Positions 6,754 through 28,196 of a stretch of DNA of 64,000 bases are shown piece by piece. The position numbers and the translations under genes were made by a program. The stretch is from Opitutales bacterium (GTDB lineage Bacteria; Verrucomicrobiota; Verrucomicrobiia; Opitutales; JABSRG01). Position 1 is the stretch's first letter. Each line of letters begins with the position of its first letter. The stretch spans positions 1-64,000 of the forward strand of contig JBMYOQ010000001.1 of NCBI GenBank assembly GCA_049599475.1. The letters run 5' to 3'. The notes under the pieces are model-generated. The model was not told the origin of the DNA and searched no databases. It worked only from the letters and a program-made list of their open reading frames with translations.

Positions 6754-8769
6754 ATGGCTTCTGAAGATTTGCCAAACGAGTCTGAATCGACTGAAAACCC
6801 TCCTCCTGCCAAAAAGGCTGCTGCGAAGAAAAAGCGTGCGCCTCGCAAAAAAGCTGCAGCTAAAAAGAAGGTAGCTAGGAAGAAAACCGTAGATCAGGGT
6901 GAGCTCTTTGATACGCCTGAAGCTCCTGCCGAGGCGAAACCTGCAAAAGCTGCGAAACCTGCAAAGAGTGAAAAGGCTGAAAAGTCACCGTTGCTTTACT
7001 CGAGTGACGATGATTCGGGCGATTCTTACGACGATAAAGGGAGTGCCGCTTCAGACGAAGGGGATGCAGCGTCTTCGGAATACCCGGATGCGAAAAAGTC
7101 GAAGGTTATGAAATTTGCGAGCATCGCTGCGCGTCCAGAATTTCGCAGTGAGGACGAAGAAGCCCCTTCTGAAGGATCGGATTCGAATGACGGGGCTCCA
7201 CCTAAAAAGGGAGGTGCTCATCATCGGGGCCATCGCAATGATGGAAACCACGGGGGTGGGAAACCGCCTTTCAAGCGCGGCAAAAAGGAAAAATTCCAAC
7301 CGAAGAAAAAAGAGAAATTCCAAAAGTTCTCGAAAACACAGCGCAAACAGCGCCAGCGTCGCCGCCAGTTTGAAGAAGAGGTCGGTCTAGAATTCGGCAA
7401 TCTTCAGTTTGATGAAGGGCTGCAGGACGCAGAGTCGCTGGAAACTCTATTTTCGGAAGTCGCGAATTTGGAGGAGCTGGAACTCGATTTCAACCGCCTC
7501 TACCGCATGCAGCTTAATGATCTGCGTGCTCGGGCTGACCGCCTCGAAATCGATTTCGAGACCGCGCCATCGCGCATTCTGCTCGTTCAAGAGATCTTGC
7601 GTAGTGCTGCATCTGAGAAGCAGCCATTGCGGGTTGTGGGTGTTTTCGATCCGATTCCCGATGCTGAGGATGATTCGGGAATGCTCGTCTACGAGATCGA
7701 TAATTATCGCCAAAAAGCTCTTTCATCCTTTGTCCCAGGTTGTTTCGTAAAGAAATATGGACTGCAGCCTGGGCACATCGTGGATACATACGTGCATGCT
7801 CCGCGCGAAGATGAGAGCTGTCCTTTTGTCCTCAAGGTAAATACCGTGATGGGCCGCGATCCTGAGGAAGTTCAAAGCATCACTCCGTTCACGGAGCTCG
7901 TTCCGTACTACCCGACTGAGCGTATTCTTTTGGAGACGCCGAAGGAAGCGGGCATCAAAATCACCTGGGACGACGTATCTATGCGGGTAGTGGACTGTGT
8001 GTCTCCTGTTGGTTTTGGTCAGCGCGGTTTGATCGTGGCTCCGCCTCGAGCCGGTAAAACGGTACTCATGCAATCGATCGCTCATTCGATTCAAACCAAT
8101 TTCCCGAATGCACATATGATGATTCTATTGGTCGACGAGCGTCCTGAAGAAGTGACGGACTTCCGTCGCCAGGTGCACGAGGATGTGGAAGTCATCGCCT
8201 CGACTTTTGACGAAAATGCCGAAAGCCACGTACACGCCGCGGAAGTGGTCATTGAAAAGGCCAGGCGCATGGTCGAGGTAGGGAAGGATGTCGTAATTTT
8301 ATTAGATTCGATTACCCGTCTTGCTAGAGCTTACAACACGACGATGCCCAACAGCGGTAAGATCCTGTCGGGTGGTGTAGAGGCGAATGCTTTACAAAAG
8401 CCGAAGCGCTTCTTCGGCTCAGCGCGTAATATCGAAGGGGGCGGATCGCTGACTATTCTCGGGACGGCCCTCGTTGAGACTGGTAGTAAGATGGACGAAG
8501 TGATCTTCGAAGAGTTCAAGGGCACTGGTAACATGGAGCTCGTTCTCGATCGTGAACTCGTCAATAAACGCGTCTTCCCGGCATTGAGCTTCGAAAAAAG
8601 TGGAACGCGGAAAGAAGAATTGCTTTACCACCCTGAAGAGATGAGCAAAATTTACTCATTGCGCCGCGCCATGAAAGGCGTACCGTCAGTCGAAGCTATG
8701 GAAATGCTGATACAGAGAATTAAGAAAACCCGCTCTAATGCCGAATTCCTTTTGACTCTGAATCGCTAA
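6754..8769 (+). CDS. rho: Transcription termination factor Rho with long N-terminal low-complexity extension
   Basis: [56 protein letters not shown]. Confidence 0.98.
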
Positions 8770-16608: not shown

Positions 16609-17955
16609 TTAGAAACCCATGCCTGGCATGCCGCGCCCGCCGGAGGCTTTCATGCGTTTCATCATCTTCTGGCCCTTGGACCCCTTCATCATTTTCATCA
16701 TTTTTTGCATCTGACCAAATTGTTTAATGAGGGCGTTTACGTCTTTCACGGCAACCCCTGAACCATTGGCTATGCGGAGGCGTCGAGAGCCGTTGATGAC
16801 TTTCGGGTTTTGGCGTTCCTTAATCGTCATGGACAGGATGATGGCTTCGGTGCGCTTGAGTTGATTTTCCTCTTTGTCGCCGACTTTCACACCATTCATG
16901 CCCGGTAGCATGCCCATGATGGAGCCGAGGGAGCCCATCTTCTTAATCTGCTTCATCTGCGCGAGGAAGTCTTCGAAGTTGAACTCCGCGCGCTTCATGC
17001 GCTCGGCGAGACGGGTGGCTTCATCTTCGTCAATTTGCTCCTGGGCCTTTTCGACCAGAGAGACAACGTCGCCCATGCCGAGGATGCGGGAGGCAATACG
17101 ATCCGGGTGGAAGAGTTCAAGGTCTTCCACTTTTTCGCCCACACCGGCAAACTTGATCGGCTTGCCGGTGATGTGCTTCATGGAAAGAGCCGCACCGCCG
17201 CGCGCGTCACCATCGAGCTTGGTTAGAACAATTCCTGTGATGCCTAGGGCCTCGTCGAAATGCTTTGCGACATTCACTGCTTCCTGGCCGAGTGCTGAGT
17301 CCGCGACCAGAAGAATCTCATCGGGATTGATGGTATCCTTGAGCTTTTGGACCTCTGCGATCAGCTCTGTGTCGATTTGGAGTCGGCCAGCGGTGTCGAA
17401 AACGAGGACATCCGCGTTTGCCTCGATTCCCGAGTGCAGGCCCGCTTTACCAATCTTCGAGACATCCTGATTGCCGCGATCGGCGTAAAAGTGTGCGCCT
17501 GTTTGCTTAGCGAGAGTCTCGAGTTGATCGATCGCTGCAGGACGGTAAATATCCCCAGCAATGAGGGCTGTGGTCTTCTCCTTTTTCTTGAAATAGTGAG
17601 AGAGCTTGCCCGCAATCGTCGTCTTACCGGAGCCTTGGAGACCCACCAGCATGATCTTGAGCGGGCGCTTCTCGGCGAGAGCGGTGGCGCCGGAGCCTAG
17701 CAGCTCAACGAGCTCATCATTGAGGATTTTGACGATCTGTTGCCCGGGATTGACGGACTTGATGGTCTCTTGGCCGAGTGCTTTTTCTTTTACGGCATTG
17801 ATGAACTCGCGCGCTACTTTGAAGTGTACGTCTGCCGAGAGAAGCGCGGTCCGCACCTCTTTGAGGGCCTCGGACACGTTCTCTTCTGTGATCTTATTGA
17901 GCCCCCGCAGGTTGCGAATGGCCGATGACATTTTCTCGGTAAGCGATTCGAGCAT
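16609..17955 (-). CDS. ffh: Signal recognition particle protein
   Basis: [35 protein letters not shown], Met-rich M domain. Confidence 0.98.
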
Positions 17956-18009
17956 TTGAGGCAGTGTGGGAGAAAATCAGCATAGGGCAACTTTGGAGTT
18001 GGGTACATG

Positions 18010-18043
18010 AAAAAGACGCCAAGCTGGAGGGCTTGGCGTCTTT
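18010..18043 (-). terminator. Bidirectional intrinsic terminator after flagellin 1
   Basis: AAAAAGACGCCAAGC-TGGAGG-GCTTGGCGTCTTT; paralogous to the terminators after flagellins 2 and 3. Confidence 0.88.
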
Positions 18044-18060
18044 GAATGATGGATAGATGA

Positions 18061-18873
18061 TTATCCGATAAGTCTCAGCGCGACCTGTTGACTCGCATTT
18101 GCCTGAGCAAGCATCGCCGATCCAGACTGGACGAGGATGTTGTAACGGGCGAAGGCTGTCGACTCGGATGCGATATCCGTATCAGCGATACGGCTATTCG
18201 CGGCCTCGAGATTTACCTTATTGGTGTTCAGGGTTTCTGATGCGAAGTTCAGACGTGATTGTTGCGCACCATTCACAGCGCGTTGTGTGGCGACCTCCTG
18301 GATGGCATCGGTAACATTAGTTACGGTTACGCCGGATAGGGAGGTGGCTGCTGTGACTGTTGCTACATTGGAGCCGGTTTGGTTGAAGTCAGCTTGGGAG
18401 ACTGTGACGTCGCCTCCTCCGCCTTCAGTTGTGGCTACAGTGAGTGATCCGTCTGCTGCTGCGAACAGATTTACCCCATTGAACTGTTCGTCATCGAGAT
18501 TCTGGAGCTGTGACACGAGTTCTGTGAACTCTGAATCATAGTTGGCCTTATCGCTGGTGCTCTTCGTGACGTCTTCATACATCGTTTTGAGCTCAGACAT
18601 ACGGTCCAGGATCTTGGTGGCTGTCTTCAAAGCGCCGTCTTGTGTCTGGAGGAACGAGACTGCGTTTTGTATGTTCTCATTGACTTTGGTGGTGCGGTTA
18701 ATTGCTGAACTCAATTTCATTGAGACAGCCAAACCACCCGCATCGTCAGATGGGTTTACAATTTTTGAACCACTCGACAAACGAGCAAGGCTATTTTTGA
18801 ACATAGCGTTGCTACCGTTGAGGCTATTTGCTGCTGAAGTCGCAGCGGTGTTGGTATTGATTACCAATGACAT
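18061..18873 (-). CDS. fliC: Flagellin 1 (270 aa, D0-D1 core only)
   Basis: MSLVINTN, LARLSSGSKI..PSDDAGGLAVS, AANSRI.DTDIA.E, MLAQAN. Start at ATG 18873 by homology with the paralogs. Confidence 0.97.
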   Translation of the reverse strand: MSLVINTNTAATSAANSLNGSNAMFKNSLARLSSGSKIVNPSDDAGGLAVSMKLSSAINRTTKVNENIQNAVSFLQTQDGALKTATKILDRMSELKTMYEDVTKSTSDKANYDSEFTELVSQLQNLDDEQFNGVNLFAAADGSLTVATTEGGGGDVTVSQADFNQTGSNVATVTAATSLSGVTVTNVTDAIQEVATQRAVNGAQQSRLNFASETLNTNKVNLEAANSRIADTDIASESTAFARYNILVQSGSAMLAQANASQQVALRLIG

Positions 18874-19172
18874 GATGATCTTCCTTGATTCGTGGTAACT
18901 CCCTGTTACCCAGGGCCAATTTTCGGCAAGGGGATTGGCACCCCAACCGGAACGTCCGTGCTCCGGAAGACTGAGGCAGGTAAGCGTAGCGCTGCTTATG
19001 GCAGCCAAATACGCATGTGCTCAGTGCAACTTGGATTATATAGCTTTGGATTGAATCAAGCTGGATCACCTCACGACTTCGGAGGCAAATAATCCACGAT
19101 TTGATTTTGAACAGTTACTATCATTAGTCCGATGCTTAGTTGTTTAGCATCGCTGCTATATGAACTGTTAGA

Positions 19173-19184
19173 CTATCAATGAAC
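19173..19184 (-). promoter_or_regulatory. boxA-like motif (variant GTTCATTGATAG) in flagellin 1 leader
   Basis: Same position relative to the promoter as the GTTCTTTGACAA copies in leaders 2 and 3. Confidence 0.5.
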
Positions 19185-19219
19185 GATACGCAGGGTATCG
19201 ATCGTGGTTGTTGAACTAT

Positions 19220-19246
19220 AGATCGGCAAAATGTTCGGTAAATTGA
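19220..19246 (-). promoter_or_regulatory. sigma28 (FliA)-like promoter for flagellin 1
   Basis: TCAA-N15-GCCGATCT versus consensus TAAA-N15-GCCGATAA. Confidence 0.7.
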
Positions 19247-19452
19247 ATTTTATTTTAAAGATTTAATCTCGCTGCCGACAAAGTGATTTTGAATTCGAAG
19301 TATCAGAAGGAGCGATAGGGTAAGTTTGAAACAAGTGCCGTTTGAGGAAGCAATCTAACTCTTAGGAGTAGTGCTCTGCTATATGTTTGAGGGCTTGTTT
19401 ACTCTGGATGTTATTTGAGTATGGGTGTAGATTTGTATCTGAGAATGGATAC

Positions 19453-19487
19453 AAAAAAGACGCCAGGCTGGCGGGCCTGGCGTCTTT
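19453..19487 (-). terminator. Bidirectional intrinsic terminator after flagellin 2
   Basis: AAAAAAGACGCCAGGC-loop-GCCTGGCGTCTTT. Confidence 0.88.
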
Positions 19488-19504
19488 CTTATTTTCCGGA
19501 TGGA

Positions 19505-20317
19505 TTATCCGATAAGTCTCAGTGCGACCTGTTGACTTGAGTTTGCCTGAGCAAGCATCGCTGATCCAGATTGGACGAGGATGTTGTAACGAGCAAACGC
19601 TGTAGACTCGGACGCGATATCTGTATCGATGATACGGCTATTCGCGGCTTCGAGATTTACCTTGTTAGTGTTTAGAGTTTCTGAAGCGAACTGCAGACGT
19701 GATTGTTGTGCACCATTAACGGCGCGCTGTGTAGCCACTTCCTGAATTGCGTCAGTAGTGTTGGTCACAGTGACATTCGCCAGGCTAGTCTGAGCAGTGA
19801 TCGTAGCGACGCTCGAACCGGTTTGGTTGAAGTCAGCTTGAGACACAGTTACATCTCCGGATCCAGTTTCAGTCGTAGCGACGGTGAGCGCACCGTCCGC
19901 AGCGGCGAATAGATTTACCCCATTGAACTGCTCGTCATCCAGATTTTGAAGTTGAGCGACGAGTTCGGTAAACTCCGAGTCATAGTTTGCCTTATCGCTA
20001 GAACTCTTCGTGACGTCTTCATACATCGTCTTGAGTTCAGAGACGCGGTCCAAGATTTTCGTAGCTGTTTTCAAAGCACCGTCTTGTGTCTGGAGAAACG
20101 AGACTGCGTTTTGAATGTTTTCATTGACTTTGTTGGTACGGTTAATGGCTGAACTCAATTTCATTGAGACGGCCAAACCACCCGCATCGTCAGATGGGTT
20201 TACGATTTTTGAACCACTTGACAAACGAGCAAGGCTATTTTTGAACATAGCATTGCTGGAGTTGAGGCTGTTAGCTGCAGAAGTTGCAGCGGTGTTGGTA
20301 TTAATTACCAGTGACAT
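19505..20317 (-). CDS. fliC: Flagellin 2 (270 aa)
   Basis: Flagellin N- and C-terminal motifs; close paralog of flagellins 1 and 3. Confidence 0.97.
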   Translation of the reverse strand: MSLVINTNTAATSAANSLNSSNAMFKNSLARLSSGSKIVNPSDDAGGLAVSMKLSSAINRTNKVNENIQNAVSFLQTQDGALKTATKILDRVSELKTMYEDVTKSSSDKANYDSEFTELVAQLQNLDDEQFNGVNLFAAADGALTVATTETGSGDVTVSQADFNQTGSSVATITAQTSLANVTVTNTTDAIQEVATQRAVNGAQQSRLQFASETLNTNKVNLEAANSRIIDTDIASESTAFARYNILVQSGSAMLAQANSSQQVALRLIG

Positions 20318-20621
20318 GATGATCTTCCTTGATTCATGGCAACTACCTGTTGCCGAGGACCACTTTTTGCCGAAGGGAATGGCGCCCTAACTGGAGCATC
20401 CGTGCTCCAGAAGCCTGAGGCATCGTTACAGGCGGACACGCGCGTCGCGTCTCCAGTATGTAGCTTTCTCAGTTCGACTTGGACATAGCTGGCTATGAAC
20501 CATGTATTACCGTCACCGTGCTGCGGGCAACTAACAGTCTCCGTGTTCTGTTATTCTGTTGATCATTGGATTTCGGAACCGAGCTTGGAATAGTCGGATC
20601 AGAATTTTAAAAACCACAGAA

Positions 20622-20633
20622 TTGTCAAAGAAC
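20622..20633 (-). promoter_or_regulatory. boxA-like motif GTTCTTTGACAA in flagellin 2 leader
   Basis: Identical 12-mer in leader 3; resembles the rRNA-leader boxA. Confidence 0.65.
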
Positions 20634-20671
20634 AGGTGAATCAATTGGATCGTGGTTAATTGGCTCTTAAA

Positions 20672-20698
20672 TAGTCGTCATGGAATGATCAATACTGA
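20672..20698 (-). promoter_or_regulatory. sigma28-like promoter for flagellin 2
   Basis: TCAG-N15-GACGACTA at the position equivalent to the flagellin 1 promoter. Confidence 0.55.
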
Positions 20699-20794
20699 AT
20701 ATAATGATGAACTATTTTAAGAAAATTAAGGGTTTAAGAGCGGCGATTTAGTCTGAGTGAAATAAGAGAAATTGGGATTTATACGTACGCGAAT

Positions 20795-20824
20795 AAAGAC
20801 GCTAGGTTGGAGGACCTAGCGTCT
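20795..20824 (-). terminator. Terminator hairpin after flagellin 3
   Basis: AAAGACGCTAGGT-TGGAGG-ACCTAGCGTCT, with compensatory changes versus the other two terminators. Confidence 0.8.
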
Positions 20825-20839
20825 CTAATTGGTGGATAA

Positions 20840-21652
20840 TTATCCGATGAGTCGTAGTGCGACCTGTTGGCTGGAATTTGCCTGTGCAAGCATCGCAGAT
20901 CCAGATTGGACAAGGATGTTATACCGAGCAAATGCAGTGGACTCAGATGCGATATCCGTATCAATGATACGACTATTCGCGGCCTCAAGATTTACTTTGT
21001 TCGTATTTAGAGTTTCGGAGGCGAACTGTAAGCGTGATTGTTGTGCTCCATTTACAGCACGTTGTGTAGCGACCTCCTGAATGGCATCAGTGGTGTTCGT
21101 TACTGTAATGTTTGCAAGGCTGCTTTGTGCAGTCACAGTTGCGACACTTGAACCGGATTGGTTAAAGTCCGCTTGTGATACTGTGACATCTCCTGCGCCA
21201 GTTTCGGTTGTTGAAACTGTGAGGGCACCATCGGCGGCAGCAAACAGGCTGACTCCGTTGAACTGCTCGTCGTCTAGGTTTCCTAGCTGAGCGACCAGTT
21301 CAGTATACTCTGAATCATAATTTGCCTTATCGCTGGCACTCTTCGTGACGTCTTCATACATCGTTTTGAGTTCAGAGATACGGTCCAAGATCTTCGTAGC
21401 CGTTTTCAGAGCACCATCTTGTGTTTGGAGAAACGAAATGGCGTTTTGAATGTTTTCGTTGACTTTCTGGGTGCGGTTGATGGCGGAGCTCAGTTTCATT
21501 GAGACCGCCAAACCACCAGCATCGTCAGCGGGGTTTACGATTTTTGAACCACTCGACAAACGAGCAAGGCTAGATTTGAACATAGCGTTGCTTGAGTTGA
21601 GACTGTTCGCTGCAGACGAGGCAGCTGTATTGGTATTGATTACTAGTGACAT
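20840..21652 (-). CDS. fliC: Flagellin 3 (270 aa)
   Basis: Flagellin motifs; start at ATG 21652 (MSLVINTN). Confidence 0.97.
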   Translation of the reverse strand: MSLVINTNTAASSAANSLNSSNAMFKSSLARLSSGSKIVNPADDAGGLAVSMKLSSAINRTQKVNENIQNAISFLQTQDGALKTATKILDRISELKTMYEDVTKSASDKANYDSEYTELVAQLGNLDDEQFNGVSLFAAADGALTVSTTETGAGDVTVSQADFNQSGSSVATVTAQSSLANITVTNTTDAIQEVATQRAVNGAQQSRLQFASETLNTNKVNLEAANSRIIDTDIASESTAFARYNILVQSGSAMLAQANSSQQVALRLIG

Positions 21653-21922
21653 GTATCTTCCTTGATTCACGGCAACTCCCTGTTGCCCAGGGCCAATAGG
21701 AGTAAAGGGATTGGCGCCCTAACTAGAACGTCCGTGTTCTAGAATGCTGAGGCATGTCTACGGAGAGTCATTATTTTTTACTCTCCATTTGTCTACTCAG
21801 CTTCTCTTGGATATTTTCTTGTGAATCTTGGATACCAATGGCTGCCTCGCGCTGCGGGCGAGGGTCTCGATAGGTTGCCTACATGAAATACGTATATGCG
21901 TATGTCGGGTTTGTAGGCAAAG

Positions 21923-21934
21923 TTGTCAAAGAAC
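21923..21934 (-). promoter_or_regulatory. boxA-like motif GTTCTTTGACAA in flagellin 3 leader
   Basis: Identical to the leader 2 copy; about 36 nt downstream of a sigma28-like -10 (GCCGATGT, 21970-21977). Confidence 0.65.
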
Positions 21935-22076
21935 TATTGAATCAATTTGATCATAATGTTGGCCGACTCACATCGGCAGGAATTGATTAAGTGTCTGAGT
22001 TGATACCGTCTTGGATGGGGGTAAATAACCCACATTCAAGACGGTATCAGGGAACACAGTGTTACCAGCACTGTGC

Positions 22077-22120
22077 CCCTGAACACCTTCACTTGTCTAT
22101 TCCGTCATTCGTATCAGAAA
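22077..22120 (-). repeat. Conserved 44-nt element 3' of flagellin 4 (copy A)
   Basis: CCCTGAACACCTTCACTTGTCTATTCCGTCATTCGTATCAGAAA; differs from 23783-23825 by one indel. Confidence 0.9.
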
Positions 22121-22129
22121 CTGATTCTA

Positions 22130-22942
22130 TTATCCTAGGAGTCGGAGGGCTGCCTGTTGGCTGGAATTCGCCTGAGCCAACATCGCGGTGCCCGACTGGA
22201 CAAGGATGTTGTATCGTGCGAAGGCAGTAGACTCTGCTGCTACGTCGGTATCGACGATACGGCTATTCGCCGCTTCCAAGTTCAACTTGTTGATGGACAA
22301 GGTGTCGATTGCGAACTGTAGACGTGAAGTCTGTGCACCATTAACAGCACGTTGGGTAGCTACTTCCTGGATGGCGTCTGTGATGTTAGTAACAGTAATA
22401 CTCGTTAGTGAACTCACGCCAGTGATCGTTGCGACGTTGGAACCACTTTGATTGAAGTCCGCTTGGGAGATTGTAATATCTCCACCGCCTTGCTCTGTGG
22501 TTGCTACAGTGAGCGCACCATCTGTGGCGGCGAATAGATTTACCCCATTGAACTGTTCATCGTCGAGGTTCTGAAGTTGTGCGACGAGTTCGGTGAATTC
22601 CGAATCATAGTTTGCCTTATCGCTGGAGCTCTTGGTGATGTCGTCATACATCACTTTGAGTTCAGAGATACGGGTTATGATACTGGTTGCTGTTTTTAAG
22701 GCACCATCCTGACTCTGCAGGAATGAAATTGCATTTGACAGGTTCTCTTTTACTTTTTCGGTCCGGTTGAGTGCCGATGTGAGTTTTAGCGATACCGCCA
22801 ATCCCCCAGCGTCATCAGCCGGATTTACGATTTTACTACCGCTCGATAAACGAGCGAGGCTCTTTTGGAACATTGCAGAGCTACCGCTCAAGTTTTGTGC
22901 AGCTACTGATGCTCCTACATTTGTATTGATTACTAGTGACAT
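22130..22942 (-). CDS. fliC: Flagellin 4 (270 aa)
   Basis: Flagellin motifs; close paralog of flagellin 5. Confidence 0.97.
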   Translation of the reverse strand: MSLVINTNVGASVAAQNLSGSSAMFQKSLARLSSGSKIVNPADDAGGLAVSLKLTSALNRTEKVKENLSNAISFLQSQDGALKTATSIITRISELKVMYDDITKSSSDKANYDSEFTELVAQLQNLDDEQFNGVNLFAATDGALTVATTEQGGGDITISQADFNQSGSNVATITGVSSLTSITVTNITDAIQEVATQRAVNGAQTSRLQFAIDTLSINKLNLEAANSRIVDTDVAAESTAFARYNILVQSGTAMLAQANSSQQAALRLLG

Positions 22943-23059
22943 GATCTTATCTTCCTTGATTTTACCGCTACATCCATGTTGCGGTTTTCCAGCGTTTTAA
23001 TTTTGGCAGTTGGATCGCCGTTTGAGTATTATTACTCGATTCGTGGTTGTGGTTGAACA

Positions 23060-23725
23060 CAGAACATTGATGGAAACAATGCTCTGAAAGAATGGGCTTG
23101 CCGCATAGCCTTCCGCGTGTGGAAGAAATATGGGACAAGCCGGAAAGTCCCCGGGCTCCTTGGGCGAGCCCCGGCGTGGAATGCCGGAGCTCGCAGCGTC
23201 ACTTTATCTATACTATTGCTTTATCCAAGGAGCCTGAGTGCGGCCTGTGAAAGGGCCTAACGGATGCATGCCGGTTACTCACGCGCGGCAGGGTCCGCGC
23301 AGAACCTTGGCTTTTAAGCGTATCGCGTAAATGCCGTGTTCTGCTGGTTCGGGGTTCGAAAAAAAGCGATTTGATTAACGAATACAAAATAGCTCCATTC
23401 CGAGTTGTTCATTCAAGACTCGATCTTTGATATGTCGGTGCACTCGAAGAGAACGAAACGAGTGCAAATACAGACTGGCTTCTATCGAATGCCCTCGAAA
23501 GAGGGTTTCGCTAAAAGTCGAATCTGCCCTGGATATACCGCAGGAGCCTCTAGACGCGTCAATGGATGCGCTTTAGTATTGCGTTGACTCTCCAGCCAAC
23601 GGGTTGGCGCATCCTATATTTTCACAGGCGTGACAAGTCTAGGAGCTCCTGGCGTGTATTATGTCAAAGAACGAGCTATTGTTTGGCTCAGATAAGGAGT
23701 ATAGAATGGCGGGCTCCTCACCCGC
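23060..23725. ncRNA. Candidate large structured RNA / very long leader between flagellins 4 and 5
   Basis: No credible ORF; dense nested stems (e.g. GGCTCCTTGG/CCAAGGAGCC, GCAGAAC/GTTCTGC, GCACTCG/CGAGTGC, CCCTC-GAAA-GAGGG); boxA-like motif at 23661-23672. Confidence 0.5.
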
Positions 23726-23782
23726 AGGAATAGGTCTATGTGTCGGTGGAGAACAGGGCTCGAGCCGGGTCGGACGGAACGT

Positions 23783-23825
23783 CCCTGAACACCTTCACTT
23801 GTCTATTCCGTATTCGTATCAGAAA
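23783..23825 (-). repeat. Conserved 43-nt element 3' of flagellin 5 (copy B)
   Basis: Near-identical to 22077-22120. Confidence 0.9.
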
Positions 23826-23836
23826 AATTGGAGACT

Positions 23837-24649
23837 CTAACCGAGGAGTCTTAGCGCGGCCTGTTGGCTTGAGTTCGCTTGGGCGAGCATCGCAGTTCCG
23901 GACTGGACTAAGATATTGTATCTCGCGAATGCTGTGGATTCCTGGGCAACATCGGTGTCGACAATTCGGCTATTCGCAGCTTCAAGGTTCAGCTTGTTGA
24001 TGGATAGCGTGTCGATCGCGAACTGGAGTCTGGATGTTTGGGCACCGTTGACTGCTCGCATAGTTGCGACTTCTTGGATGGCATCCGTAAGATCGGTTAC
24101 CGTTATGCTGCTCAATGTGCTTGCGCCGGTGATTGTGGCGACTTCGCTGCTGGTTTGGTTGAAGTCTGCTTGGGAGATCGTGATATTCCCTCCCCCGGTT
24201 TCTGTAGTGGCGACTGTCAGGGCTCCGTCTGCTGCGGCAAACAGATTGACTCCATTGAACTGCTCTTGGTCAAGGTTACCCAGTTGGGCAATGAGTTCGG
24301 TGAACTCAGAATCATAATTCGATTTATCGTCTGTGCTCTTGGTGACGTCGTCATACATCACTTTGAGCTCCGAGATACGGGTTATGATACTGGATGCTGT
24401 TTTCAATGCACCATCTTGGCTTTGCAAGAAGGAGATCGCATTGGACAGGTTCTCTTTGACCTTTTCGGTGCGGTTGAGGGCCGAGGTGAGCTTGAGCGAG
24501 ACTGCTAAGCCACCAGCGTCATCAGCCGGATTTACGATTTTGCTTCCGCTCGATAGTCGAGCGAGACTCTTTTGGAACATCGAGTTGCTGCCGCTTAAGT
24601 TTTGCGCTGCAACTGATGCGCCGACGTTTGTATTGATTACGAGTGACAT
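23837..24649 (-). CDS. fliC: Flagellin 5 (270 aa)
   Basis: Flagellin motifs. Confidence 0.97.
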   Translation of the reverse strand: MSLVINTNVGASVAAQNLSGSNSMFQKSLARLSSGSKIVNPADDAGGLAVSLKLTSALNRTEKVKENLSNAISFLQSQDGALKTASSIITRISELKVMYDDVTKSTDDKSNYDSEFTELIAQLGNLDQEQFNGVNLFAAADGALTVATTETGGGNITISQADFNQTSSEVATITGASTLSSITVTDLTDAIQEVATMRAVNGAQTSRLQFAIDTLSINKLNLEAANSRIVDTDVAQESTAFARYNILVQSGTAMLAQANSSQQAALRLLG

Positions 24650-25094
24650 ATTATATCCTCCATGATATGTCGTGGCTTAGTGCCACGGTTGCTGGTATTT
24701 TTTGAATGGGCCGCCAGCGGACCTTCGAGCATCCGTGCTCTTGGTATTTATTTGGATAATGCGCTTTTGTTTTTATTCACGCATTCTGCCAAAAAGTCTC
24801 ATGATCATCGTGGTTTTGATGTTTCTTGTTATGTTTACGGTAAGGTGATTTCTTTGGATGTGTGTTGCGATAGTTGCGCTCCTGGGCTTTTTCGCGATTA
24901 CGTTTGCGGGGGTATACTCCCGCGATGGCATCATCTAAGTAATCTGTGTAGTTGTATGTGTATGATGAAATTTTCATATCTTTGTATCCTTGATTTAGTA
25001 TTACATTTGGGTGGGGACTCAGCCATCGAGTCTCGAGGTATGAGATGTATTTGCTTACTCATTGAGTTGTTGAGGCTGAGGTTTTAACTTCTCC

Positions 25095-25898
25095 TTATTG
25101 GAGGAGTCGTAGGGCTGCTTGGGATGCTTGGTTCGCTTGTGCAAGCATTGCCGTGCCGGATTGGACCAGAATGTTATACCTTGCGAACATCGTGGATTCT
25201 TCAGCTATATCAGTATCTTTGATACGGCTGTTTGCGGCTTCGAGATTGAGTGCATTGACGCTCAGCATATCGATGGAGAATCCAATTCGGCTGGATGTTG
25301 CACCATTGATTGCTCGCATTGTGGCGACGGACTCGATTGCGGTAACTACATCTGTTATGGTGATCGATGTAAGTGAAGAAGCCGATGTTACCGTGTTTGT
25401 AGTGCCTTGGAGGTCTGCTTGGCTGATATCTACCGTTTGTTGACCGTCTTCGGTAACAATTGTGGATAATGTGTTTCCGCCGTTGGCAAACAGGCTGACA
25501 CCATTGAAATTTTCATTGGTCAGAAGGCCGAGTTGGCTTTGTAGCTCAGTGAACTCTGCGTTGTAGTTCGCTACGTCGTCTGTGCTTTTTGCGACGTCTT
25601 CCGCCATGATGCGGAGCTCTGACATGCGATCTAGGATCTTGGTAGCGTTTTTAAGAGCTCCATCCTGAGATTGTAGGAATGAAAGAGAGTTTTGAAGATT
25701 GTTCTTCAGCGCTCGTGTGCGGCTGATCGTAGCATCGATTTTCAGAGAAACCGCAAGACCCCCAGCGTCATCGGCAGGGTTAACTATCCTTGAACCACTC
25801 GAAAGTCGGGCCAAGCTTTTCTGTAAACTTTGATTGCTATGTGTAAGATTAACTGCGGACGCACTGGCCGCGATGTTGGTATTGATGACAAGTGACAT
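25095..25898 (-). CDS. fliC: Flagellin 6 (267 aa, most divergent)
   Basis: Flagellin motifs. Confidence 0.97.
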   Translation of the reverse strand: MSLVINTNIAASASAVNLTHSNQSLQKSLARLSSGSRIVNPADDAGGLAVSLKIDATISRTRALKNNLQNSLSFLQSQDGALKNATKILDRMSELRIMAEDVAKSTDDVANYNAEFTELQSQLGLLTNENFNGVSLFANGGNTLSTIVTEDGQQTVDISQADLQGTTNTVTSASSLTSITITDVVTAIESVATMRAINGATSSRIGFSIDMLSVNALNLEAANSRIKDTDIAEESTMFARYNILVQSGTAMLAQANQASQAALRLLQ

Positions 25899-26000
25899 TT
25901 TTTATCCTCCATGATAAAGCGTGTGCCGTCCATGGCACCCGCGCTCAGATTTGTCAGGCTTGAGCTTCCTGGTAACAACCTCCTTGTTGCGACACCTTAT

Positions 26001-26028
26001 ATATCGCTCAGGTGTTTCCTGAACTTTA
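26001..26028 (-). promoter_or_regulatory. sigma28-like promoter for flagellin 6
   Basis: TAAAGTTC-N12-AGCGATAT versus extended consensus TAAAGTTT-N11-GCCGATAA. Confidence 0.6.
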
Positions 26029-26218
26029 AAAGAAAATCGAGAAAAGTGCGTATTTTCTCTTAGTGATAATTGAGAATCAGGAGTTGTTTGAAAGGTGAAT
26101 CATACCTCTCTTGGAGAATCTGTAATGTCCCGGCTATCGTGAGCTTTGCGCGTGAGCCCTGATAGATCAAAATATTAGCAGCCTAGATATCTGCTATATA
26201 AATTAAATAGAGCGGAGC

Positions 26219-27169
26219 CTACTTTTGTCTAAACGTGTTATCTACTGAGTGTTTTTTGAAATCCTCGAATGCATGGGCGATTCCCGTTTTGAGATCGTAT
26301 TTTGGCTCCCAGCCGAGTGAGTTTATGAGGCTGTTGTCCATTAGTTTGCGTGGAGTGCCGTCGGGCTTGCTTGTATCTTGGACGATATTTCCGTCAAAGC
26401 CGACTGTTTCGGCGACTATTTCCGCTAAGCCGCGAATACTGATCTCCTGCCCACTACCAATGTTTACGAGATCTGGTGGGTTCTCCATTTTGAGGAGGTG
26501 GACCATGCCCGCGGCGCAGTCGTCGGAGTGAAGGAACTCGCGTAGGGGGGTGCCTGTTCCCCAGAGAACGACTTCTTTCTGCCCGGACTCTGCTGCTTCG
26601 TAGAATCTGCGTATGAGTGCAGGCAATACGTGAGAATTCTCTGGATGGTAATTATCTCCAGGGCCGTAGAGATTGGTGGGCATTGCAGAGTGATAGGTTA
26701 CCCCGTATTGACGGCGATAATACTCACACATCTTTAACCCTGCGATTTTTGCAATGGCGTAGGCTTCGTTTGTCTGTTCAAGTGCTCCGGTTAGCAAACA
26801 CGACTCTTCCATCGGTTGAGGCGCCATGCGTGGGTAAATGCAGGAACTTCCGAGGAAAAGAACACGCGCTACGCCATGCTGATAGCTGCTGTGGATCAGA
26901 TTGTGGGCGATTGCGAGGTTTTCCTGCATGAACTCTGCAGGATATGTATTATTTGCATGGATACCACCTACGCGTGCTGCTGCGATGACCACGACTTGTG
27001 GCTTTTCCTGTTTGATCCACTGGTCGACGGCCGCGGCATCGGTGAGGTTGAGCTCTGAGCGGGTCCGTGTTATGATATTCTCATAGCCTTGTTGCTTGAG
27101 GTTTCGGCAGATAGCCGAGCCCACCATGCCGCGGTGTCCGCTTACATAGATCTTGGAGGATGTATCCAT
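26219..27169 (-). CDS. fcl: GDP-L-fucose synthase
   Basis: [48 protein letters not shown]. Confidence 0.96.
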
Positions 27170-27182
27170 TCTTTATTACGAT

Positions 27183-28196
27183 TTAGTAGGTCGCTTCCTT
27201 TATTGCTAGTTCCTTGCGGGCAAGTTTTAGATCGGACTCCGTCATGATTTTGACGAGTTCCTTAAACTTTACTTTTGGCTCCCAGCCGATCTGCTTCTTG
27301 AGCTTTGCCGGGTCTCCGATGAGTAGGTCTACTTCAGCGGGGCGCTCATAGCGTGGGTCGAATTTTACGTATTCCTTCCAGTCTAGATCGAGAAGGCCGA
27401 ATGTTTCTTCGACAAATTCCTTAACAGTGTGAGTTTCGTTCGTCGCGCAAACGTAGTCATCTGGGTTGTCTTGCTGTAGCATGAGCCACATGACCTCTGC
27501 ATATTCCTTAGCGTATCCCCAGTCGCGTTTAGCATCGAGATTGCCCATGTAGAGTGAATCTTGCAGTCCCATCTTGATGCGTGTTGCTGCACGTGTGATT
27601 TTGCGGGTTACGAAAGTTTCTCCGCGGCGTGGGGATTCGTGGTTGAAGAGGATGCCGTTTGAAGCATGCAGGCCGTAAGATTCGCGGAAGTTGACGGTTA
27701 GCCAATATGCGTAGACTTTCGCGCAAGCGTAGGGTGATCGTGGCCAGAAAGGTGTTTCTTCTGTCTGAGGAACGTGTTGAACCTTTCCATACATTTCAGA
27801 TGAAGATGCTTGGTAGTAGCGGCATTTGTTGACGAGGCCTGCTTCGCGGATGGCTTCTAGAATGCGGACGGCTCCGACTCCGACTACGTCGCCTGTGTAT
27901 TCTGGAATGTCAAAAGATACGCGCACGTGCGATTGAGCTCCTAGGTTATAGATTTCATCGGGCTTGAGATCGTAGAGGAGCTTTATGAGCTGTGTGGAGT
28001 CTGCGAGATCACCGTAATGAAGGAAGAGCTTGGTCCCGTGAATGTGTGGGTCATTATACAGGTGATCGATACGGTCGGTATTGAAAGTGGAGGAACGGCG
28101 GATGATACCGTGGACTTCGTACCCCTTTTCAAGGAGGAGTTCTGCGAGGTAAGATCCGTCTTGGCCGGTGATTCCTGTAATGAGTGCTCGTTTCAT
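27183..28196 (-). CDS. gmd: GDP-mannose 4,6-dehydratase
   Basis: [47 protein letters not shown]. Confidence 0.98.

What the first reader, a model, noticed from the sequence alone, without database searches (positions are those of the whole stretch)
18874..23672. rRNA-type boxA antitermination motif at the start of long flagellin leaders
Seen: four flagellin upstream regions carry, on the coding strand, GTTCATTGATAG (19173-19184), GTTCTTTGACAA (20622-20633), GTTCTTTGACAA (21923-21934) and GTTCTTTGACAT (23661-23672), with otherwise divergent flanks. In leaders 1-3 the motif lies about 36-39 nt downstream of a sigma28-like -10 and about 270-305 nt before the ATG; in leader 4 it is about 720 nt before the ATG. 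Known: boxA binds NusB/NusE (S10) and protects untranslated rRNA and some CRISPR transcripts from Rho. Inference: these flagellin mRNAs have very long untranslated leaders shielded from Rho by ribosomal-type antitermination, linking flagellin output to Nus/S10 availability. I know of no described boxA-leader-flagellin cassette.
Basis: partly seen in the sequence, partly recalled or inferred. Interest (0 to 1): 0.82.

Follow-up and report, generated by a model that had tools for sequence, protein, structure and literature searches.

The report
rRNA-type boxA in flagellin leaders
Several flagellin genes of this marine bacterium carry, far upstream of the start codon, the same short signal that its relatives use in ribosomal RNA operons to keep RNA polymerase from stopping, which suggests, without proving, that flagellin messages borrow the ribosomal anti-stop system.

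Summary
Six tandem flagellin genes lie on the minus strand, and four upstream regions carry GTTC[T/A]TTGA[C/T]A at the stated coordinates. The window's genome has no assembled rRNA. In relatives of the same order the rrn boxA reads GTTCTTTGA(A/C/T)A, so three of the four motifs match it over 11 of 11 bases. In this genome and in a second genus, every copy outside long reading frames is a flagellin leader or an rrn leader. The motif recurs 282-391 nt before flagellin start codons in two other genera and one metagenome contig, although the flanks no longer align. It is the top shared word in an unbiased search. A sigma28-like -10 lies 43-55 nt upstream in 6 of 8 leaders. The last ~105 nt of the leader fold into covarying hairpins with GGA loops, the CsrA type, and csrA, fliW, nusB and rho are all present.

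Not shown: the transcription start, NusB/S10 binding, and any effect on Rho. "Leader 4" is composite and contains a flagellin pseudogene relic. Motif 1 has an A where rrn boxA always has U. Verdict: a probable (about 0.5) new target of a known element.

The parts
18061..18873 (-). flagellin gene 1 (270 aa)
   Evidence: Pfam Flagellin_N 2e-25, Flagellin_C 5e-19
19505..20317 (-). flagellin gene 2 (270 aa)
   Evidence: Pfam
20840..21652 (-). flagellin gene 3 (270 aa)
   Evidence: Pfam
22130..22942 (-). flagellin gene 4 (270 aa)
   Evidence: Pfam
19173..19184 (-). boxA-like motif 1, GTTCATTGATAG (A at the position that is U in all rrn boxA seen); 311 nt before the ATG
20622..20633 (-). boxA-like motif 2, GTTCTTTGACAA; 316 nt before the ATG
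21923..21934 (-). boxA-like motif 3, GTTCTTTGACAA; 282 nt before the ATG
23661..23672 (-). boxA-like motif 4, GTTCTTTGACAT; 730 nt before the ATG of flagellin 4 and about 318 nt before the pseudogene relic
   Evidence: covered by RNA-library contigs 23651-23944
19220..19246 (-). sigma28-like promoter candidate TCAA-N15-GCCGATCT, leader 1
   Evidence: inference from consensus
20672..20698 (-). sigma28-like promoter candidate TCAG-N15-GACGACTA, leader 2
21970..21998 (-). sigma28-like promoter candidate TCAG-N17-GCCGATGT, leader 3
20637..20651 (-). near-palindromic block GATCCAATTGATTCA between the -10 box and the motif (leader 2); identical in metagenome contig L083
21938..21952 (-). the same block in leader 3, GATCAAATTGATTCA
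18874..18981 (-). conserved proximal leader 1. It holds TGCCTCAG, hairpin H1 (18947-18966, loop ACGGAC), a long-range helix, hairpin H3 (18894-18910, loop AGGGA) and the SD AAGGAAG (18880-18886)
20318..20422 (-). conserved proximal leader 2 (H1 20391-20410, H3 20338-20354, SD 20324-20330)
21653..21757 (-). conserved proximal leader 3 (H1 21723-21742, H3 21671-21687, SD 21657-21663)
19456..19487 (-). intrinsic-terminator-like hairpin after flagellin 2; it bounds the upstream end of unit 1
23221..23354 (-). relic of a flagellin 3' end inside 'leader 4' (QAALRLLG plus stop, 8 of 8 identical to the flagellin 4 C-terminus; QNTAFTRY upstream)
   Evidence: the individual E-values are weak, but the hits are collinear

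Best explanation
Flagellin genes 1-3, their orthologues in sister genera, and originally a now-deleted paralogue upstream of gene 4, are each separate transcription units. Each is probably driven by a sigma28-type promoter placed about 320-440 nt before the start codon, rather than the roughly 100 nt usual in other families of this order (inferred). About 25-45 nt into the transcript lies a boxA identical to the lineage's rRNA-operon boxA. The most likely mechanism is that nascent boxA RNA is bound by NusB-S10 (NusE). That binding converts RNA polymerase into the Rho-resistant rrn-type elongation complex, so that it crosses the long untranslated leader. It may also cross the coding region while CsrA blocks translation at the conserved GGA hairpins and Shine-Dalgarno site. 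What is shown: sequence identity with rrn boxA, conservation, strand, position, and the presence of the factor genes. What is inferred: the transcription start, Nus binding, and the antitermination outcome.
For: (1) rrn boxA of the lineage. In 14 of 16 rrn loci from relatives, GTTCTTTGA lies 109-202 nt before 16S and is followed by TTTGTGCGAT. In 11 of 16 it also lies in the 16S-23S spacer, where it reads GTTCTTTGACAG in same-family genome G006. The site list is, which also found an rrn-leader copy at a contig end in G003. (2) The one freely varying position among the 29 rrn-locus sites, N in GTTCTTTGA-N-A (A 19, C 6, T 2, G 2), is also the variable position in the flagellin motifs (C, C, C, T, T, A, C, C). 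(3) Conservation as an island. G003 has GTTCTTTGATAA and GTTCTTTGAAAA 388 and 391 nt before two flagellin ATGs. G005 has GTTCCTTGACAG at 351 nt. Metagenome contig L083 has GTTCTTTGACAT at 313 nt. All 8 copies are on the coding strand. In an unbiased 10-mer search of the distal leaders, the top word was CGTTCTTTGA, present in 7 of 7 with at most 1 mismatch. In 100 dinucleotide shuffles the best word reached 4 of 7 in 25 shuffles and 3 of 7 in 75. These sequences are kin, so this is not a probability. (4) Specificity. In G000, 3 of 10 sites lie outside long reading frames, and all 3 are flagellin leaders. In G003 the 11 sites are 2 flagellin leaders, 1 rrn leader and 8 inside open frames of 120 aa or more. 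(5) A [GC][AC]CGA[TC] hexamer lies 43-55 nt upstream of the motif in 6 of 8 leaders, against a background density of 0.004 per nt. Four of these have a T[CA][CA][AG]-N15 partner. (6) The orthologues fla2, L083 and L084 keep conserved blocks along the whole leader, together with hairpins of different sequence at the same place. The proximal leader has 22 predicted pairs, 11 of them with compensatory changes. (7) nusB, two rho homologues, adjacent csrA and fliW, and two FliA-type sigma genes are present. (8) The Aquifex rrn boxA naturally has C at the position where G005 has C (passages of PMC3177189). (9) An RNA-library contig runs from within flagellin 4 to 269 nt upstream of its ATG. The next contig continues to 23360, and another covers motif 4. 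Contigs carry no strand information, come from one study, and may include DNA.
Against: No transcription start is known. The promoter call rests on a degenerate match: TCAA, TCAG or TCCA in place of TAAA, and GACGACTA in leader 2. Leader 4 and G003 flagellin 2 have no such hexamer in the window. Motif 1 has A at boxA position 6, where transversions abolish binding in lambda boxA. The leaders have no C-rich, G-poor stretch beyond genome background: the best 78-nt C-minus-G value is 0.08-0.21, against a genome 95th percentile of 0.15. A need for protection from Rho is therefore not evident from composition. In another family (G056) the homologous ~95-nt proximal leader sits directly behind a sigma28-like promoter, so a proximal start in this family cannot be excluded. 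A perfectly conserved near-palindromic block sits next to the motif, which would suit a DNA-binding regulator. Outside this family no full motif was found: it occurred in 2 of 70 flagellin upstream regions of the order, both from G003.
Confidence: 0.5

Rival explanations
1. The motif acts as DNA. It would be part of a promoter-proximal operator or other protein-binding site for a flagellar regulator, perhaps together with the adjacent near-palindrome GATC(C/A)AATTGATTCA. Its likeness to boxA would then be coincidence.
For: The 22 nt just upstream of the motif are 100% identical between G000 flagellin 2 and L083, and they are near-palindromic. No transcription start is known. A looser relative of the motif, YTTGAAAGTC, with a variable 5' half (GATC, GTTG, AGTC), lies upstream of flagellins of another clade. 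There the boxA-critical bases are not kept.
Against: The motif itself is not palindromic and always lies on the coding strand, in 8 of 8 cases. The distance between the palindrome and the motif changes from 16 to 22 nt between orthologues. Leader 1, G003 and G005 keep the motif without the palindrome. The pattern of invariant and variable bases copies that of rrn boxA. Read as a sigma70 -35 box, the motif fails: 0 of 8 leaders have a -10 hexamer with 4 of 6 matches or better at 16-18 nt, and the window scan paired no motif copy with a -10.
Confidence: 0.25
2. The motif is transcribed and binds NusB-S10, but not to stop Rho. It would work as on suhB (repression) or as an RNA-folding tether that helps the long leader fold. 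Or it could be the site of another RNA-binding factor or small RNA.
For: BoxA can promote rather than prevent Rho termination, and it represses suhB (abstract and passages of PMC5725501; review passages of PMC12360218). The leaders show no clear rut-like composition. The leader is highly structured.
Against: The motif lies 270-390 nt from the Shine-Dalgarno site, whereas suhB-type repression acts close to the ribosome-binding site (passages). No complementary small RNA or other candidate partner was looked for or found.
Confidence: 0.15
3. The motif has no function of its own and is carried along with duplicated flagellin upstream regions.
For: The genes are tandem paralogues. An 11-mer is expected about twice per genome by chance.
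Against: The flanks have diverged beyond blastn detection while the motif is kept, both within the genome and across three genera plus a metagenome contig. Shuffles never approach the observed sharing.
Confidence: 0.07

Closest known systems
rrn operon boxA and the rrn antitermination complex (NusB, NusE/S10, NusA, NusG, SuhB, S4)
   Same: The 11-nt sequence is the same as the rrn leader and spacer boxA of this order. It lies on the sense strand, early in a long untranslated stretch. nusB and rho are present.
   Different: The element sits before a protein-coding gene. No boxC-like TTTGTGCGAT follows it, and an upstream boxB-like hairpin is present only in some leaders. Binding and antitermination are untested.
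suhB 5' UTR BoxA and the predicted BoxA sites upstream of other genes in gamma-proteobacteria (Baniulyte et al. 2017, PMC5725501; abstract, passages and section 13 read)
   Same: It is a boxA on an mRNA leader outside rRNA. It was found by matching the rrn consensus and supported by conservation.
   Different: Those sites lie within 50 bp of the start codon and repress translation, which promotes Rho termination. Here the motif is 280-390 nt upstream. 'flagell' does not occur in that paper's main text; its supplementary gene list was not seen.
boxA in CRISPR array leaders protecting long untranslated arrays from Rho
   Same: A boxA at the start of a long untranslated transcript acts as protection against Rho. 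This is the same logic as proposed here.
   Different: The product there is non-coding RNA. Here the boxA precedes an mRNA whose translation is probably held back by CsrA.
FliW-CsrA-flagellin partner switch on the hag leader of Bacillus subtilis and relatives (recalled from memory)
   Same: The proximal leader has GGA motifs in two hairpin loops and in the Shine-Dalgarno site. csrA and fliW are adjacent in the genome.
   Different: That system has no boxA and a short leader. CsrA binding was not tested here.
CsrA-controlled Rho termination in the pgaA leader (review PMC12360218, passages)
   Same: It is a long leader on which CsrA and Rho meet.
   Different: There CsrA exposes a rut site and promotes termination, and no Nus element is involved.

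Membership tests
boxA (NusB/NusE loading site) | Sequence matches the organism's own rrn boxA consensus | tested here: met
   The own genome has no rRNA assembled. Relatives of the same order and family carry GTTCTTTGA(A/C/T/G)A in the rrn leader and spacer, as does the rrn leader fragment of G003. Motifs 2-4 match 11 of 11. Motif 1 differs at boxA position 6 (A).
boxA (NusB/NusE loading site) | Lies on the transcript, downstream of the promoter, on the sense strand | tested here: inconclusive
   The motif is on the sense strand in 8 of 8 leaders. A sigma28-like -10 lies 43-55 nt upstream in 6 of 8. No 5'-end data exist. RNA-library contigs cover motif 4 only.
boxA (NusB/NusE loading site) | Critical bases kept (G2, C5, pyrimidine 6, U7, U8 in the numbering of PMC3177189) | tested here: met
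   7 of 8 leaders keep all of them; G005 has C6, as in Aquifex. Motif 1 has A6.
boxA (NusB/NusE loading site) | Binds the NusB-S10 heterodimer | not testable with these tools
   nusB is present at G000:C16. No RNA-protein test is available.
boxA (NusB/NusE loading site) | Changes Rho-dependent termination downstream | not testable with these tools
   Rho homologues are present. Leader composition is not rut-like beyond background.
rrn-type boxB-boxA-boxC leader | Hairpin just upstream of boxA and a boxC (TGTGCGAT-like) just downstream | tested here: not met
   A hairpin abuts the motif in 3 of 8 leaders (G000 fla1, G000 fla4, G005 fla1), and in G003 fla2 a hairpin ends 9 nt before it. No TTTGTGCGAT follows any flagellin motif. 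The rrn leaders have it.
CsrA-regulated flagellin leader | GGA motifs in hairpin loops and overlapping the Shine-Dalgarno site; csrA and fliW present | tested here: met
   H1 loop ACGGAY, H3 loop AGGGA and SD AAGGAAG; 11 of 22 pairs have compensatory changes in 9 sequences. csrA and fliW are adjacent at C100. Binding was not tested.
sigma28 (FliA) promoter | TAAA-N15-GCCGATAA upstream of the start site | tested here: inconclusive
   Only degenerate forms are present: TCAA-N15-GCCGATCT, TCAG-N15-GACGACTA and TCAG-N17-GCCGATGT. The consensus is recalled from memory. Two FliA-type genes are present.

The most novel reading that the evidence does not exclude
In one family of marine bacteria, flagellin mRNAs are made by rRNA-style, Nus-modified RNA polymerase. 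A boxA at the start of a 300-400-nt leader would load NusB-S10, so that the transcript is completed even while CsrA keeps it untranslated and therefore exposed to Rho. This would tie flagellin supply to the pool of free S10 and NusB, that is, to ribosome synthesis. It would be the first boxA-controlled motility gene and the first case of Nus antitermination combined with a CsrA switch.
Probability: 0.35. Interest if true: 0.7.

Novelty: new member of a known kind. Interest (0 to 1): 0.52.

Why it matters
BoxA and Nus factors were long regarded as dedicated to rRNA and lambdoid phages. Only a few other targets have been tested, such as suhB and a Citrobacter gene. A conserved boxA at the head of long flagellin leaders would add a highly expressed structural gene to that list. 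It would also give a reason for the element: translation of flagellin mRNA is normally held back by CsrA until the hook is finished, and untranslated RNA is what Rho attacks. The case is testable with a 12-nt RNA, two proteins and a reporter. It would also show how a leader can grow threefold in one family once it carries its own antitermination signal.

Tried and rejected
- **Rfam.** There was no family at gathering score in the window, and only one chance-level hit (rnk_pseudo, E 4.9) in 17900-26500.
- **Own rrn.** No 16S or 23S is present in the 146-contig assembly, so the comparison had to use relatives.
- **The search for related loci in genome contigs.** With flagellin 2 as query, no relative was confirmed.
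- **RNA runs.** Four poly(A)-selected seawater RNA libraries from one study, held as contigs only.
  - No contig covers the distal leaders 1-3 (19024-19304, 20429-20709, 21553-21833).
  - The contigs on flagellin 1 stop at 18925-18949.
Contigs also carry no strand or 5' ends.
- **sigma54 promoter.** There was no match of 8 of 11 or better with correct GG/GC spacing in any family leader.
- **Motif read as a sigma70 -35 box.** No usable -10 was found.
- **rut-like C>G composition.** It is not above genome background.
- **Accessibility of the motif in full-leader folds.** Mean unpaired probability over the 12-nt motif was 0.37-0.71, against leader means of 0.38-0.45. This is uninformative.
- **boxB-like hairpins.** They are inconsistent in the flagellin leaders and also absent from some rrn leaders.
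- **Order-wide search.**
  - The full motif occurred in 2 of 70 flagellin upstream regions, both from G003. A looser pattern added one weak hit, in G056.
  - The 7-nt core GTTCYTT gave 11 sense and 7 antisense hits in 28.5 kb, so there is no clear enrichment outside the family.
- **Metagenome loci.**
  - 76 of 77 were examined; L134 has no upstream sequence.
  - 9 carry the pattern: L083 plus 8 loci of another clade with GGTTCCTTGAAA 152-187 nt upstream.
  - In that clade's relatives the 5' half varies (GATC, GTTG, AGTC), so I do not count them as boxA.
- **Literature.**
  - 'boxA, flagellin, NusB' with 2 of 3 terms required gave 286 papers. The 20 listed include none on this topic.
  - 'boxA, flagell, antitermination' gave 6 papers. 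I read passages of one, PMC12360218, where flagella appear only for a C. difficile invertible element. The other five were seen as listing only.
- **Earlier scan notes.** None concern flagellin.
- It failed on a mistyped frame and was repeated correctly.


Full report
**What is there**

The window holds six tandem flagellin genes on the minus strand: 18061-18873, 19505-20317, 20840-21652, 22130-22942, 23837-24649 and 25095-25898. All have Pfam Flagellin_N and Flagellin_C. They sit between an SRP54 gene and GDP-sugar genes. They lie 311, 316, 282 and 730 nt before the start codons. The sigma28-like -10 boxes are GCCGATCT, GACGACTA and GCCGATGT. They end 35, 38 and 35 nt before motifs 1-3. Terminator-like hairpins follow the genes, so each gene looks like a unit of its own.

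**Is it chance?**

GTTCTTTGACA occurs three times in the 4.68-Mb assembly, and all three copies are here. Of the ten matches to GTTCTTTGA[ACT]A, only these three lie outside reading frames of 120 aa or more. By blastn, leaders 1-3 align only over the last ~105 nt, plus 30 nt around the motif between leaders 2 and 3.

**Is it the lineage's boxA?**

The assembly has no 16S or 23S, so I took rrn loci from relatives.

- In 14 of 16 loci, GTTCTTTGA lies 109-202 nt before 16S and is followed by TTTGTGCGAT.
- In 11 of 16 loci it recurs in the spacer.
- In the same-family genome G006 the leader reads GTTCTTTGAAAG and the spacer GTTCTTTGACAG.
- An rrn-leader copy also sits at a contig end in G003.
- Across 29 rrn-locus sites only the base after GTTCTTTGA varies freely (A 19, C 6, T 2, G 2). 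The flagellin motifs vary at that same position.

**Conservation elsewhere**

The family has seven genomes in the collection, and four of them have matches to this flagellin.

- G003, another genus, has a four-gene cluster. Two of its genes carry GTTCTTTGATAA and GTTCTTTGAAAA 388 and 391 nt upstream.
- G005 has GTTCCTTGACAG at 351 nt.
- A metagenome contig, L083, whose flagellin is 88% identical, has GTTCTTTGACAT at 313 nt.
- G000 flagellins 5 and 6 and G003 flagellins 3 and 4 lack the motif.

An unbiased word search of the seven distal leaders then in hand put CGTTCTTTGA first, present in 7 of 7 with at most one mismatch. In 100 dinucleotide shuffles the best word reached 4 of 7 at most. The sequences are kin, so this is a description and not a P value. 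In G003 the 11 genome sites are two flagellin leaders, one rrn leader and eight inside long open frames.

Outside the family the full motif is missing from the other 66 flagellin upstream regions sampled across the order.

**Where does transcription start?**

This is the weak point.

- In other families of the order, 15 of the 80 upstream regions scanned have a TAAA-N14-16-GCCGATAA-like match ending 94-107 nt before the ATG. One of these is flagellin 6 of this window.
- In G056 such a promoter abuts the homologue of the conserved proximal leader.
- Leaders 1-3 have no such box at that place, and no sigma54 box either.
- Instead, 6 of 8 motif-bearing leaders have [GC][AC]CGA[TC] 43-55 nt before the motif. 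Four of these have T[CA][CA][AG] 15 nt further up.

A start at that upstream box would put boxA at about +25 to +45. The orthologues fla2, L083 and L084 keep conserved blocks all along the leader, and they have hairpins of unrelated sequence at one and the same place. That pattern fits RNA better than spacer DNA.

The RNA libraries I could lay are poly(A)-selected contigs from one study. One contig bridges the flagellin 4 ATG and 269 nt upstream. The next reaches 23360, and another covers motif 4 together with the 3' end of flagellin 5. They give no strand and no 5' ends.

**The proximal leader**

Nine sequences from five sources fold into three helices with 22 predicted pairs, 11 of which have compensatory changes. 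The sources are this window, G003, G005, G056 and two metagenome contigs. GGA sits in the loops of H1 (ACGGAY) and H3 (AGGGA) and in the Shine-Dalgarno site AAGGAAG. csrA and fliW are adjacent on contig C100. This is the layout of CsrA-controlled flagellin leaders; the comparison is from memory. The genome also has nusB, two rho homologues and two FliA-type sigma factors.

**Mechanism I think most likely (0.5)**

A sigma28-type promoter would lie far upstream, with boxA early in the RNA. NusB-S10 loading would make the polymerase Rho-resistant across a 280-390-nt leader. The protection could extend across a coding region that stays untranslated while CsrA is bound.

The points against this reading are:

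- the start site is unknown;
- the leaders are not rut-like in composition;
- motif 1 has A at boxA position 6, where transversions are not tolerated in lambda boxA, whereas C, as in G005, is natural in Aquifex;
- a perfectly conserved near-palindrome, GATC(C/A)AATTGATTCA, lies beside the motif in leaders 2 and 3 and in L083, and it could be an operator.

The rivals are a DNA-level site (0.25), a Nus- or RNA-level role other than antitermination (0.15), and no function (0.07). Reading the motif's TTGACA as a sigma70 -35 box fails for lack of any -10.

**Leader 4 is not what it seems**

Between flagellins 5 and 4 lies the 3' relic of a flagellin gene, at about 23221-23354. It encodes QAALRLLG plus a stop, 8 of 8 identical to the flagellin 4 C-terminus, with QNTAFTRY further up. 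The region also gives a blastn hit to a G003 flagellin 3' end. Motif 4 lies about 318 nt before that relic, which is the usual motif-to-gene distance. It therefore most likely belonged to the deleted paralogue.

**Comparison and novelty**

BoxA outside rRNA is known from suhB, and many further sites have been predicted in gamma-proteobacteria (PMC5725501: abstract, passages and section 13). It is also known from CRISPR arrays (recalled from memory). BoxA can either prevent or promote Rho action (review passages). I found no paper that links boxA to flagellin. The supplementary gene list of PMC5725501 was not seen.

Earlier notes of this scan report boxA before phage RNAs and before island genes of another bacterium, but none concern flagellin.

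I file this as a new member of a known kind. It is supported by sequence and comparison only.

Noticed in passing
window 23221-23354 (-): A flagellin 3' relic (QAALRLLG plus stop, with QNTAFTRY upstream) lies inside the 894-nt gap between flagellins 5 and 4. A paralogue appears to have lost about its first 200 codons while keeping its leader and boxA-like motif.
   Followed up: partly
window 24777-24977 (-): A 66-aa, very basic, His/Lys/Asn-rich ORF lies between flagellins 6 and 5. Its AAGGAT ribosome-binding region resembles that of the flagellins. It has no Pfam match. RNA-library contigs cover 24660-24857.
   Followed up: partly
window 20637-20651 and 21938-21952 (-); L083: The near-palindromic block GATC(C/A)AATTGATTCA lies between the sigma28-like -10 and the motif. 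Including its flanks it is identical over 22 nt between flagellin 2 and metagenome contig L083. It may be an operator or an RNA element.
   Followed up: partly
window 19027-19035, 20475-20483, 21803-21811 (-); G003 L036: A conserved block, ATCCAAGT(T/C)GA(G/A)C, lies 60-75 nt before hairpin H1 in all long leaders. It is followed by a hairpin whose sequence differs in every leader. Its role is unknown.
   Followed up: no
window 6754-8769 (+): A Rho homologue of 671 aa carries the RNA-binding domain at residues 305-371 and the ATPase at 410-616, so it has an N-terminal extension of about 300 aa. A second Rho-like match lies on contig C33, within a 407-aa open frame.
   Followed up: partly
G000:C3:121857-122528 and G000:C7:14952-15632: Two FliA/WhiG-type sigma factors score above the NCBIfam cut-off. 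This could explain two classes of flagellin promoter: canonical before flagellin 6 and degenerate before flagellins 1-3.
   Followed up: no
G000:C29 (L034) and G001:C262 (L020): A seventh, unlinked flagellin and its same-genus orthologue share a conserved island, GTGTTCTTT(A/G)CCA, in upstream regions that are otherwise about 40% identical. In G001:C262 it lies about 205 nt before the ATG. It matches the 8-nt boxA core but not the rest of the motif.
   Followed up: partly
G005:C214:317-327 and G005:C255:2156-2166 (L180, L181): Two non-flagellin sites with GTTCTTTGACA share about 23 of 25 nt of upstream sequence (CGCCGTTTTCCGCCAAWTCGCCC). One lies just past a TonB-dependent receptor gene on the opposite strand. 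The other lies 496 nt before a 322-aa ORF with no Pfam match.
   Followed up: partly
metagenome loci L087, L088, L090, L093, L096, L097, L098, L110: Another flagellin clade carries GGTTCCTTGAAA(GTC) 152-187 nt upstream, flanked by runs of GTCAG/GTCGG repeats. Related genomes of the order have GATCTTTGAAAGTC or AGTCCTTGAAGTTC at that place. It is unclear whether this is a boxA variant or a different element.
   Followed up: partly
window 26219-28196 (-): A GDP-mannose 4,6-dehydratase and an NAD-dependent epimerase lie directly upstream of the flagellin cluster. They may make a sugar for flagellin glycosylation.
   Followed up: no
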